A DNA stretch of 64,000 nucleotides from Promethearchaeati archaeon SRVP18_Atabeyarchaeia-1 (GTDB taxonomy: Archaea; Asgardarchaeota; Atabeyarchaeia; Atabeyarchaeales; Atabeyarchaeaceae). Below the pieces are notes generated by a model. It saw nothing but the letters and a program-made list of their open reading frames with translations, was not told the origin of the DNA and did not search any database. Positions 13,839-15,205 of the stretch are shown here, one piece after another. The stretch lies in assembly GCA_037308085.1 (NCBI GenBank), contig CP147779.1, positions 640,001 through 704,000 on the forward strand, in the 5' to 3' direction. The position numbers and the translations under genes are program-made. The number at the start of each line of letters is the position of its first letter. The first letter of the stretch is position 1.

Positions 13839-15205
13839 TTGGAAATTGATTCTGCCAAGCGAACGTATACGAAGATTAGGGATTTGTTGCGTGAACACCA
13901 TGAATGGTTTGATGCTAGTATACCTTTGATAGCTAGCGAGAATGTTCCGAGTCCTGCAGTTCGTGCAGCGGTCGCTTCAGATTTTGGCAACCGGTATGCG
14001 GAAGGCTGGCCTGGAGAGTAAGTGCTCGGCTCCAACTCTGAGCATTTTCCAGAAAGCGGGTCTATGCCGGTTGCAAATATATCGATCAGGTTGAGCTGAT
14101 TTGTAGCGACTTAGCTAGGAAGCTCTTCAAAGCCGAGTTTGCCGATGTTAGGCCCATCTCTGGTGTTGTAGCCAATCTGGCTGTTTACACAGCCTTCTCC
14201 GAGCCGGGAGACCGAATGATGGCGTTACCGATCCCCGACGGCGGACACATAAGCCACGCAAAGAGGTCTTTAGGCGGGACGGCGGGATCCGTTCACGGGC
14301 TTAGAGTCAGGTACTTCGAGTATGACGAGAACGAGCTCAACATCGATGTTGACAGAAGCATAAAGCGGATAAAGAAGACGATAAGCAAGGGCAAAGCCAT
14401 CACTCTGTTCATGTTTGGTGCTAGCGTCTTTCCCTTTCCGCACCCTGTCAAAGAGTTCCGGGAGATCGCTGATGAGATGGGCTCATTCATAGCATACGAC
14501 GGGGCCCATGTGTCAGGGTTAATTGCCGGTGGGTGCTTCCAAGATCCCCTGAGAGAAGGGGCTGACGTATTCTCCATGAGTACACACAAGACTATGCCTG
14601 GTCCGCAGGGAGGCCTCGTAGTTTCTTGGGAGAAGTACGCTGAGCGAATAAAGAAAGCTACATTTCCTGGCCTCACGAGCAACCATCATCTCAACACGGT
14701 TGCTGGAAAAGCGATAGCATTTGCCGAGATGATGGCATTCGGCAAGGAGTACGCTAGGCAGATTATTGCAAATGCCAAAGCTCTCGCTCAGGCCCTACAC
14801 GAGGAAGGCTTCAACGTGCTGGCAGAGCGTAAGGGGTTCACCGAATCCCACACTATATTGGTTGACATAACGGGCACTCCCCTCAAAGATGGTCGTGCCT
14901 GCGAGCAGGCCCTGGAATCATCAAACATAATCATCAACAGAAATCTCCTGCCTTGGGACATTCGGAAAGGTCGCAACTACCTTGCACCTGGGGGCATACG
15001 CTTGGGGACGAGCGAGGTAACAAAGTTAGGCATGAGAGAATCCGAGATGAGAGAAATAGCATCCCTCATTAGGCGCGTCATCATCGATCGCAAGAATCCC
15101 AATGACATGAGCCGGGTCGTAAAGGAATTTAGGCAGCCATTCAAGAAGGTCAAGTTCTGCTTTGAATCACAGGCTGACGCCTACGAGTACTTCGACATAA
15201 AATAG
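13839..15205 (+). CDS. glyA: Serine hydroxymethyltransferase, split by a 38-nt intron (exons 13839-14016, 14055-15205)
   Basis: [27 protein letters not shown], STHKT (PLP Lys), GIRLGT; in-frame TAA at 14019 lies inside the insertion. Confidence 0.93.
14017..14054 (+). other. BHB-type mRNA intron in glyA
   Basis: CTGG/CCAG 4-bp helix, AGA and AAA bulges, inner stem AAGTGCTC/GAGCATTT; canonical cuts restore the frame and GWPGERVY. Confidence 0.82.

What the first reader, a model, noticed from the sequence alone, without database searches (positions are those of the whole stretch)
14001..14066. Protein-coding gene glyA is interrupted by a BHB intron
Seen: SHMT stops at TAA 14019 immediately after YAEGWPGE and resumes in another frame as RVYAGC. 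The insert folds as central helix CTGG(14011-14)/CCAG(14049-52), bulges AGA and AAA, inner stem AAGTGCTC/GAGCATTT and a short imperfect outer helix. Canonical cuts remove 14017-14054 (38 nt) and give GGA GAG CGG, i.e. GWPGERVY with no residue gained or lost. The rest of the gene is intact, including the PLP lysine. Established: mRNA BHB introns are known mainly from crenarchaeal cbf5. Inference: a central one-carbon enzyme needs EndA/RtcB splicing, possibly as a regulatory link; annotation pipelines would miscall it a pseudogene.
Basis: partly seen in the sequence, partly recalled or inferred. Interest (0 to 1): 0.88.

Follow-up and report, generated by a model that had tools for sequence, protein, structure and literature searches.

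The report
Spliced mini-intron inside archaeal glyA
The serine hydroxymethyltransferase gene of this Asgard archaeon is cut in two by a 38-base insert shaped like a tRNA-type (bulge-helix-bulge) intron, and the comparative evidence says the insert is removed from the mRNA; such introns were known in only one archaeal protein gene, and here at least three more genes carry them.

Summary
glyA reads open from 13839 to GAG, then hits TAA at 14019. It resumes in another frame at CGG 14057. Removing 14017-14054 (38 nt) gives [16 protein letters not shown], identical to intronless homologues.

The insert folds as an outer helix, a 4-bp CUGG/CCAG helix, a clean 3-nt 3' bulge and an 8-bp inner stem. 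The 5' bulge is enlarged (relaxed motif).

The same insert sits at the same site in all three species of the family and in one metagenome contig. Its lengths are 38, 41, 41 and 40 nt, so they differ modulo 3. The loops differ, and two inner-stem pairs show compensatory changes. Both exons are under strong purifying selection (exon 1 dN/dS about 0.07).

The genome, probably Atabeyarchaeia with over 90% of tRNA genes interrupted, has two EndA paralogues and RtcB.

It is not an isolated case:
- The only valS carries a 31-nt insert.
- A radical-SAM gene in two relatives has a textbook BHB intron that is precisely absent here.
- A RuBisCO-like gene here has a 22-nt insert.
- glyA of another Asgard family has a different 29-nt intron.

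No spliced read was obtained. The regulatory idea has no support. Verdict: a real, probably spliced BHB intron, and a new member of a known kind.

The parts
13839..14016 (+). glyA exon 1: TTG start 10 nt after GGAGG, 59 codons plus the first base of the Glu codon
   Evidence: Pfam SHMT profile positions 6-55. dN/dS is 0.07-0.08 against three orthologues.
14003..14010 (+). 5' strand of the outer helix h. It pairs with 14056-14063, with a G14008/G14058 mismatch.
   Evidence: 7 pairs, 96% of cells paired in 4 sequences. These are coding bases, so they vary little.
14011..14014 (+). 5' strand of the 4-bp central helix (CUGG). It is exon sequence and pairs with CCAG 14049-14052.
   Evidence: 4 pairs, invariant in 4 sequences.
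14015..14019 (+). 5' unpaired stretch AGAGU. The predicted 5' cut lies between 14016 and 14017. It is enlarged relative to a canonical 3-nt bulge.
   Evidence: The cut rule (after the second bulge base) is taken from PMC2738675.
14017..14054 (+). The 38-nt intron. The junction could equally be placed 1 or 2 nt to the right and would give the same mRNA.
14019..14021 (+). In-frame TAA that ends the unspliced reading frame. G001 and the metagenome copy have TAA here; G002 has TGA.
14020..14047 (+). Inner helix h' (14020-14027 with 14040-14047) closing a 12-nt loop (14028-14039)
   Evidence: 8 pairs. Two have compensatory changes (A-U to G-C, U-A to C-G) and one changes G-U to A-U. The loop differs in sequence and length among copies.
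14049..14052 (+). 3' strand of the central helix (CCAG); intron sequence
14053..14055 (+). 3-nt 3' bulge AAA (AUA in two copies). The predicted 3' cut lies between 14054 and 14055.
   Evidence: It is a bulge in the free-energy minimum of all four copies.
14055..15205 (+). glyA exon 2: last two bases of the Glu codon, 382 codons, and the stop at 15203-15205. It contains the PLP-lysine motif STHKT.
   Evidence: SHMT profile positions 56-399; NF000586, 388 bits, cut-off 335. dN is about 0.10-0.11 with saturated dS.

Best explanation
The 38 nt at 14017-14054 are an archaeal bulge-helix-bulge intron in the glyA pre-mRNA, in a relaxed form.

Proposed mechanism:
1. The transcript folds so that exon bases CUGG (14011-14014) pair with intron bases CCAG (14049-14052). 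An exon-exon outer helix and an intron hairpin flank this helix.
2. The splicing endonuclease cuts after the second unpaired base on each side (14016|14017 and 14054|14055). Here it is probably an (alpha-beta)2 heterotetramer, because two EndA paralogues are encoded.
3. RtcB joins the 2',3'-cyclic phosphate and 5'-OH ends.
4. The mature mRNA reads ...GGA GAG CGG... and encodes a 442-residue serine hydroxymethyltransferase.

Shown here: the anatomy, its conservation and covariation, selection on both exons, the presence of the enzymes, and the existence of sister cases.

Inferred: cleavage, ligation and translation of the spliced form.

The intron most likely has no function of its own. It is one of many short introns that this lineage, with almost every tRNA gene interrupted, gains, tolerates and sometimes loses.
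For: 1. Exact restoration. Removing 38 nt gives [23 protein letters not shown]. This is the contiguous sequence in intronless homologues from Bathyarchaeia, Nitrososphaeria, Methanomethylicia and another Asgard genome. Pfam profile positions 55 and 56 abut.

2. Conservation with variation. The same site is interrupted in G000, G001 (same genus), G002 (another genus) and a metagenome contig. Lengths are 38, 41, 41 and 40 nt. Loops differ, 97% of structure cells are paired, and two pairs are compensatory. Because the lengths differ modulo 3, no fixed ribosomal frameshift can read all copies.

3. Both exons are under purifying selection (exon 1 dN/dS 0.07-0.08; exon 2 dN about 0.1 with saturated dS).

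4. At the homology-fixed junction such a motif arises in 7e-5 of shuffles, and only the canonical cut register fits.

5. Machinery. There are two PF01974 EndA paralogues and one RtcB. Relatives are reported to have 92-95% of tRNA genes with introns (PMC11291895).

6. Sister cases.
- The only valS over the family cut-off is split by a 31-nt insert with TAA (profile 2-73 | 74-413). It is split in all three family members and continuous in 37 other Asgard genomes.
- A radical-SAM gene has a textbook hBHBh' intron of 53 nt (G002) or 52 nt (G001). It is precisely absent in G000 (TCPWCQN).
- A RuBisCO-like gene has a 22-nt insert in G000 only.
- glyA of another Asgard family has a 29-nt intron at a different site.

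7. An independent DNA assembly from another sample and study carries the insert unchanged, so it is not an assembly artefact.
Against: - No spliced RNA was seen.
- The 5' side is not a clean 3-nt bulge. The isolated RNA's minimum-energy fold prefers a 7-bp helix with a 4-nt bulge, and the fold's z-score is only -1.9.
- The covariation rests on four related sequences. For the two measures that count changes on both sides, 40 of 500 shuffles reach the observed value.
- A second SHMT-family gene (396 aa, 38% identical) is intact, so viability does not require this copy.
- For valS, the canonical cut rule does not give the homology-predicted junction. The rules of this lineage's enzyme are therefore not fully understood.
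Confidence: 0.8

Rival explanations
1. Translational recoding. The ribosome bypasses the 38 nt (hopping, as in phage T4 gene 60) or shifts frame, so no RNA splicing is needed.
For: The layout resembles gene 60: a stop codon directly after the last sense codon and a hairpin at the start of the gap. Bypassing does not depend on gap length modulo 3.
Against: - A fixed +1 or -1 shift is excluded by the lengths 38, 41, 41 and 40.
- Hopping needs matching take-off and landing codons. Take-off would be GAG. To resume at CGG 14057, the landing codon would be AAG (G000, G002) or UAG (G001, metagenome), and neither is cognate for tRNA-Glu.
- The conserved elements are those of a BHB: central helix, 3-nt bulge and outer helix.
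- The sister radical-SAM intron is a perfect hBHBh'.
Confidence: 0.05
2. Pseudogene. glyA was inactivated by an insertion, and the divergent paralogue at G000:84,156-85,220 supplies SHMT activity.
For: An intact SHMT-family paralogue is present in G000, G001 and G002. An in-frame stop and a frameshift are what annotation pipelines call a pseudogene.
Against: - Both exons stay open and are under strong purifying selection in four lineages spanning two genera.
- There are no other lesions.
- The insert varies in length while its excision boundaries and helices are kept.
- The paralogue lacks the conserved YAEGxPGxRxYxG motif.
- The sole valS has the same kind of lesion and cannot be a pseudogene.
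Confidence: 0.04
3. RNA-level removal by a mechanism other than EndA/RtcB, for example another nuclease and ligase pair, or cleavage without religation that yields two polypeptides which assemble.
For: The 5' site is non-canonical. The valS insert does not obey the canonical cut rule. An RNA contig starts exactly at 14055 with nothing joined to it.
Against: - Exon 2 has no start codon before ATG 14216, 53 codons into conserved sequence.
- 38 nt is far too small for a self-splicing intron.
- The conserved features are exactly those EndA recognises.
Confidence: 0.06
4. Assembly or sequencing artefact.
For: None beyond the oddity of a broken housekeeping gene.
Against: The identical sequence is in a contig from a different sample and study (X2, 13925-14550, no differences). 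Homologous inserts are present in three other genomes or contigs.
Confidence: 0.01

Closest known systems
cbf5 pre-mRNA intron of Crenarchaeota (Aeropyrum, Sulfolobus, Desulfurococcales; Watanabe 2002; Yokobori 2009, PMC2738675)
   Same: - A short insert in a protein-coding gene, bounded by a mostly relaxed BHB.
- Predicted cuts fall between the second and third bulge bases.
- Excision restores a conserved motif.
- The host has a hetero-oligomeric EndA.
- There is lineage-specific gain and loss.
   Different: - The gene differs (glyA, plus valS, a radical-SAM gene and a RuBisCO-like gene) and so does the phylum (Asgard).
- cbf5 of this genome is not interrupted at the crenarchaeal site.
- Splicing of cbf5 was shown by cDNA and in vitro cleavage; here it is inferred.
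- Several genes in one genome family are affected, not one.
Archaeal tRNA and rRNA BHB introns (Marck and Grosjean 2003; Atabeyarchaeia tRNA genes, PMC11291895 and bioRxiv 10.64898/2026.10.13.758758)
   Same: The motif architecture (h-B-H-B-h'), the small size (tens of nt), the presumed EndA/RtcB enzymes, and rapid gain and loss within the family.
   Different: The host RNA is an mRNA. The exon helices must therefore be built from codons, and excision must be exact to the nucleotide to keep the frame.
BHB intron in the 5' UTR of Haloferax volcanii HVO_1309 (PMC7714728)
   Same: An mRNA substrate of the archaeal splicing endonuclease. As of 2020 it was the only mRNA case reported besides cbf5.
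   Different: It lies in the untranslated leader and does not interrupt the coding frame.
HAC1/XBP1 unconventional mRNA splicing in eukaryotes (Ire1 cleavage, with RtcB ligation in metazoa); from my own knowledge
   Same: It works alike: endonuclease cuts at two stem-loop sites in an mRNA, RtcB-type ligation, and a frame change that gives the functional protein.
   Different: The nuclease is Ire1, not EndA/TSEN. That system is regulated by stress; no regulation is shown here.
Phage T4 gene 60 translational bypass; from my own knowledge
   Same: A stop codon directly after the last sense codon, a hairpin, and a gap of about 40-50 nt inside a conserved protein.
   Different: There are no matching take-off and landing codons here. 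The conserved pairings are those of a BHB.

Membership tests
Archaeal BHB intron (EndA substrate) | 4-bp central helix between exon bases upstream of the 5' cut and intron bases upstream of the 3' cut | tested here: met
   CUGG 14011-14014 pairs with CCAG 14049-14052. There are 4 Watson-Crick pairs, invariant in 4 orthologous copies.
Archaeal BHB intron (EndA substrate) | Two 3-nt bulges on opposite strands that contain the cut sites | tested here: inconclusive
   The 3' bulge A(A/U)A is clean in all four copies. On the 5' side, 5 nt face 1 nt, or there is a 4-nt bulge in the minimum-energy fold. This fits the relaxed or hBH classes accepted by published classifiers.
Archaeal BHB intron (EndA substrate) | Flanking helices h (exon-exon) and h' (intron) of at least 2 pairs | tested here: met
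   The outer helix is 2 + 5 pairs. The inner helix is 8 pairs, with 2 compensatory changes.
Archaeal BHB intron (EndA substrate) | Cuts after the second bulge base give a functional junction | tested here: met
   Cuts at 14016|14017 and 14054|14055 give GGA GAG CGG, i.e. GWPGERVY, identical to intronless homologues. It is the only register that fits.
Archaeal BHB intron (EndA substrate) | Host encodes the splicing endonuclease and an RtcB ligase | tested here: met
   Two PF01974 loci (104.5 and 65.5 bits) and one PF01139 locus (583.5 bits).
Archaeal BHB intron (EndA substrate) | The intron is actually excised and the exons ligated in RNA | not testable with these tools
   Only contigs of one small metatranscriptome were available, and none spans 13950-14054. 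No raw reads were available.
Serine hydroxymethyltransferase (PF00464 / NF000586) | Full-length match to the family profile with the PLP-binding lysine | tested here: met
   Profile positions 6-55 plus 56-399 of 399. NF000586 scores 388 bits against a cut-off of 335 on exon 2 alone. The STHKT motif is present.
Pseudogene | Relaxed selection and accumulating lesions | tested here: not met
   dN/dS is 0.07-0.08 in exon 1 and dN is about 0.1 in exon 2. There are no other stops or frameshifts in four lineages.
Programmed translational bypass (gene 60 type) | Matched take-off and landing codons flanking the gap | tested here: not met
   The take-off codon is GAG. The codon before the resumption point is AAG or UAG.

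The most novel reading that the evidence does not exclude
In Atabeyarchaeia, and in at least one other Asgard family, the tRNA-splicing system (EndA and RtcB) serves as an obligatory mRNA-splicing system. Short BHB or BHB-like introns interrupt several housekeeping protein genes: glyA, the only valS, a radical-SAM enzyme and a RuBisCO-like protein. They are gained and precisely lost on the time scale of genera. Protein-gene introns removed by a protein enzyme would then be a regular feature of gene expression in the archaeal lineage closest to eukaryotes, not a one-gene curiosity of Crenarchaeota.
Probability: 0.6. Interest if true: 0.88.

Novelty: new member of a known kind. Interest (0 to 1): 0.78.

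Why it matters
Until now, BHB introns inside coding sequence were known experimentally only for cbf5 in Crenarchaeota, plus one 5' UTR case in Haloferax.

- Finding them in glyA and the sole valS of Asgard archaea would show that archaeal mRNA splicing is broader than thought. It occurs in the closest prokaryotic relatives of eukaryotes, which bears on how interrupted protein genes can arise and be tolerated before a spliceosome exists.
- There is a practical side. Gene callers will report such genes as pseudogenes or truncated ORFs. Metabolic reconstructions of these genomes may then wrongly lack SHMT, ValRS and other enzymes, and completeness or 'pseudogene load' estimates will be biased.
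- The presence/absence pair in the radical-SAM gene gives a clean system for studying intron gain and precise loss. G001 and G002 carry the intron and G000 lacks it.

Tried and rejected
1. RNA evidence. One metatranscriptome run (X7, contigs only) holds two 183-nt contigs identical to the gene, at 13767-13949 and 14055-14237. The second begins exactly at the predicted first base of exon 2. No contig covers 13950-14054 or joins across it. Contigs cannot show RNA ends, and the equal contig lengths suggest read-pair geometry. I do not count this for or against splicing.

2. Motif-first genome scan. I scanned for BHB motifs that join two open frames of at least 60 codons. It gave 42,510 hits, against 46,009 under a decoy pairing rule. 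It was useless on its own and was abandoned.

3. Search for further shared introns. The criterion was protein conservation upstream of the first ATG/GTG/TTG. It was far too noisy because of overlapping genes and off-frame conservation. The strongest candidates (ADP-forming acetyl-CoA synthetase, ApbA/PanE-like) are better explained by CTG or ATC start codons behind GGAGG/GAGGT. I therefore give no census of mRNA introns. The four genes named are a lower bound.

4. The intron is not a repeat. blastn-short of 14003-14063 finds no other copy in G000 or G002.

5. Other candidate inserts from the two-genome comparison had poor alignments or lay on the antisense of real genes, so they were dropped. 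Examples are an 827-aa HdrA-like gene and the G000 loci at 1,526,449 and 2,736,981.

6. The canonical cut rule was tried on the valS insert in every register, and none gives the homology-predicted junction. valS is reported as 'BHB-like, boundaries from homology only'.

7. Literature searches for Asgard or other new mRNA BHB introns found none in the held library. Subscription journals are not covered, so 'not reported' holds for that library only.

Full report
WHAT IS THERE. The window is G000:C1:640,001-704,000 of a closed 2,808,651-bp genome. On the + strand an SHMT reading frame starts at TTG 13839, 10 nt after GGAGG. It runs to ...TAT GCG GAA GGC TGG CCT GGA GAG and meets TAA at 14019. 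From CGG 14057 another frame reads [13 protein letters not shown]... for 382 codons to the stop at 15203-15205, and it includes the PLP-lysine motif STHKT. Pfam SHMT matches exon 1 at profile positions 6-55 and exon 2 at 56-399 of 399. The two pieces therefore abut without loss or overlap.

THE FOLD. Removing 14017-14054 gives GGA GAG CGG. The structure common to all copies has these parts:
- an outer helix (14003-07/14059-63, a G/G mismatch, then 14009-10/14056-57);
- a central helix CUGG/CCAG (14011-14/14049-52);
- a clean 3-nt bulge AAA (14053-55);
- an inner stem of 8 pairs (14020-27/14040-47);
- a 12-nt loop.

The 5' side is not a clean 3-nt bulge, because five bases (14015-19) face U14048. 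The isolated RNA's minimum-energy fold pairs AGA with UUU instead. That fold is -31.0 kcal/mol against -20.4 for the BHB fold, and its z-score is -1.9. This is a relaxed BHB of the kind that hetero-oligomeric EndA is known to accept (PMC2738675; classifier definitions). The published rule places cuts between the second and third bulge bases.

IS IT MORE THAN CHANCE. The motif alone is not evidence. A genome-wide scan for BHB motifs joining two long open frames gave 42,510 hits, against 46,009 under a decoy pairing rule. Conditional on the junction that homology dictates, only 22 of 300,000 shuffles of 14003-14063 (7e-5) give a 4/4 central helix, at least 2 outer pairs and at least 7 inner pairs. 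Of the three mRNA-equivalent registers, only the canonical one fits.

RELATIVES. Named contigs place the nearest relatives among Asgard archaea: Hermod-, Odin-, Thor- and Promethearchaeota. Four properties fit 'Atabeyarchaeia-1' of PMC11291895: genome size (2.81 Mbp, closed), wetland and sediment source runs, a second closed 2.76-Mb relative, and a closed 3.6-Mb one. That paper reports 92-95% of tRNA genes with introns. This identification is an inference.

- Among 40 relatives, the glyA frame is cut at the same place only in the two other species of the same family (G001 and G002). In the other 22 Asgard genomes with a near-full-length orthologue (55-67% identical), the frame runs 438-468 aa.
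- The inserts are 41 nt in G001 and G002 and 40 nt in a metagenome contig (L259).
- All begin with TAA or TGA directly after GAG.
- Aligned, 97.4% of structure cells pair. The central and outer helices are invariant. The inner stem has two compensatory pairs (A-U to G-C, U-A to C-G) and one G-U to A-U change. The loops differ in sequence and length.
- With only four related sequences the covariation statistics are weak (40 of 500 shuffles reach the observed value).
- The lengths 38, 41, 41 and 40 differ modulo 3, so exon 2 lies in different frames relative to exon 1 in different strains. Only exact removal of the insert reads all of them.

SELECTION AND PRODUCT. Exon 1 has dN/dS of 0.07-0.08 against G001, G002 and the metagenome copy. 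Exon 2 has dN of 0.10-0.11 with saturated dS. Intronless homologues from several archaeal phyla read [23 protein letters not shown] contiguously, which is identical to the predicted junction. Contigs of other organisms in the same metagenomes also continue ...GGAGA|AAGAGTCTACGCCGGCTGC (loose ends). An independent DNA assembly (run X2, another sample and study) holds 13925-14550 without any difference. The insert is therefore real DNA.

MACHINERY. The genome has two EndA catalytic-domain paralogues and one RtcB. This matches the two-paralogue pattern reported for most Asgard genomes.

NOT AN ISOLATED CASE. I fetched the whole of G002 and compared the two closed genomes by tblastn.

(a) valS.
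- The only ValRS over the NCBIfam cut-off (777 bits) is split after ...FPMGIDRNG by a 31-nt insert that starts with TAA.
- Pfam tRNA-synt_1 covers profile positions 2-73 in exon 1 and 74-413 in exon 2.
- All three family members are split (open frames 94, 117 and 127 aa). Thirty-seven other Asgard genomes have frames of about 750-870 aa.
- The inner helix covaries: ACCCU/AGGGU, GCC/GGC and GUC/GAC.
- The canonical cut rule does not reproduce the homology junction, so the motif is relaxed and its exact cuts are unknown.
- ValRS is essential (established knowledge). A conserved, frame-breaking insert in the only copy is the strongest argument that such inserts are removed in vivo.

(b) An AmmeMemoRadiSam-type radical-SAM gene.
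- It is interrupted inside its CxxxCxxC motif by 53 nt in G002 and 52 nt in G001.
- The motif is a textbook hBHBh': outer ACAU/GUGU, central GCCC/GGGC (GGGU in G001), bulges AUA and AAG (AAA in G001), and inner stems of different sequence.
- Canonical cuts give TCPWCQN in G002 and TCPYCQN in G001.
- G000 has the uninterrupted TCPWCQN.
- This is either a precise loss in G000 or repeated gain at the same site.

(c) A RuBisCO-like (MtnW/form III-like) gene. It has a 22-nt insert in G000 only. With three of four central pairs, the canonical rule gives DIAGA-L-SYSPITG, against DIAGAWSYSPITG in G002.

(d) glyA in another Asgard family. In two species (G029 and G019), glyA is interrupted at a different site (…LVAG|KAVAF…) by a 29-nt insert. 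It has a 9-bp stem, differing loops and 3-nt bulges, and canonical cuts restore the frame.

RIVALS.
- Pseudogene: contradicted by selection, by the absence of other lesions and by the valS case. An intact but divergent SHMT paralogue does exist (38% identity; it lacks the YAEGxPGxRxYxG motif), so glyA dependence on splicing is not proven.
- Fixed frameshift: excluded by the lengths modulo 3.
- Gene-60-like bypass: no matching landing codon (AAG or UAG against take-off GAG).
- Split protein: there is no start codon for 53 codons of conserved exon 2.
- Artefact: excluded by the independent DNA assembly.

WHAT IS NOT SHOWN. Splicing itself is not shown. The one RNA data set available as contigs has a contig starting exactly at 14055 but nothing across the junction, and I treat it as uninformative. 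The intron is unique in the genome and too small to encode anything. It sits in a lineage that accumulates such introns, so a neutral, tolerated insertion is the economical reading.

COMPARISON AND NOVELTY. The closest known system is the cbf5 pre-mRNA intron of Crenarchaeota. A 2020 paper still lists cbf5 as the only coding-sequence case, besides a 5' UTR intron in Haloferax. Searches of the held library found no report of protein-gene BHB introns in Asgard archaea or in glyA or valS. The two Atabeyarchaeia genome papers and the 2026 tRNA-intron preprint do not mention them. The mechanism is of a known kind. The genes, the phylum and the multiplicity are new.

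Noticed in passing
G000:C1:443,675-446,174 (+), outside the window; loci L249/L268. Orthologues are in L269 (G001) and L270 (G002).: The only valS of the genome is split after ...FPMGIDRNG by a 31-nt insert that starts with TAA. It is split in all three family members and continuous in 37 other Asgard genomes. The stem covaries, but the canonical BHB cut rule does not give the homology-predicted junction.
   Followed up: yes
G002:C1:~919,004-919,061 (-) = L153:19004-19061; G001:C144 = L277 around 1400-1500. 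The G000 orthologue lies at about 958,408-959,523 (-).: An AmmeMemoRadiSam-type radical-SAM gene carries a textbook hBHBh' intron (53 nt in G002, 52 nt in G001) inside CxxxCxxC. The intron is precisely absent from G000, which is in the same genus as G001. This is either a precise loss or repeated gain.
   Followed up: yes
G000:C1:~2,712,769-2,712,790 (-) = L256: A RuBisCO-like (MtnW/form III-like) gene has a 22-nt BHB-like insert in G000 that is absent from G002. No orthologue was found in G001 (94% complete).
   Followed up: partly
L029 (G029:C6 ~43,380-43,470, -) and L031 (G019:C24 ~5,540-5,620, +): In another Asgard family, glyA is interrupted at a different site (…HLVAG|KAVAF…) by a 29-nt insert. 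It has a 9-bp stem, 3-nt bulges and differing loops, and canonical cuts restore the frame. The family could not be named.
   Followed up: partly
G000:C1:~457,578-457,599 = L258: The 23S rRNA (Rfam LSU_rRNA_archaea, model positions 2312-2773) has a 32-nt insert in G000. It is absent from G002 although the flanks are 100% identical. It is probably an rRNA mini-intron.
   Followed up: partly
G000:C1:242,877-242,924 (-) = L257: A 49-nt insert relative to G002 lies in a stretch with about 88% identical flanks. There is no Rfam match, and one frame stays open across it. Its nature is unknown.
   Followed up: partly
G000:C1:990,113-992,231 (+) = L246; G000 ~29,323-30,339 (-) = L250; also L253 and L247: Several conserved genes have no ATG/GTG/TTG where the protein must begin. 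Examples are ADP-forming acetyl-CoA synthetase, an ApbA/PanE-like gene, a ThiF-family gene and an ABC ATPase. For the first two, a CTG or ATC codon sits behind GAGGT/GGAGG where G002 has ATG. Rare start codons, not introns, explain them. The others are unresolved.
   Followed up: partly
G000:C1:84,156-85,220 (+) = L002:1477-2667: A second SHMT-family gene (396 aa, 38% identical to glyA) lacks the YAEGxPGxRxYxG motif but keeps STHK. It is also present in G001 and G002. Its activity is unknown.
   Followed up: partly
window 15239-16519 (-), and window ~4917-5445: A TnpB/Cas12f-like (IS200/IS605 OrfB) gene lies directly downstream of glyA on the other strand. Related fragments occur elsewhere in the window, and there are many copies in both genomes.
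   Followed up: no
window 52487-52578 (-) and 58152-58493 (+): There is a tRNA (ARAGORN on the whole genome: tRNA-Thr(TGT) with a 15-nt intron) and the archaeal SRP RNA. ARAGORN finds only 22 tRNA genes in the whole genome, which fits heavily interrupted tRNA genes.
   Followed up: no
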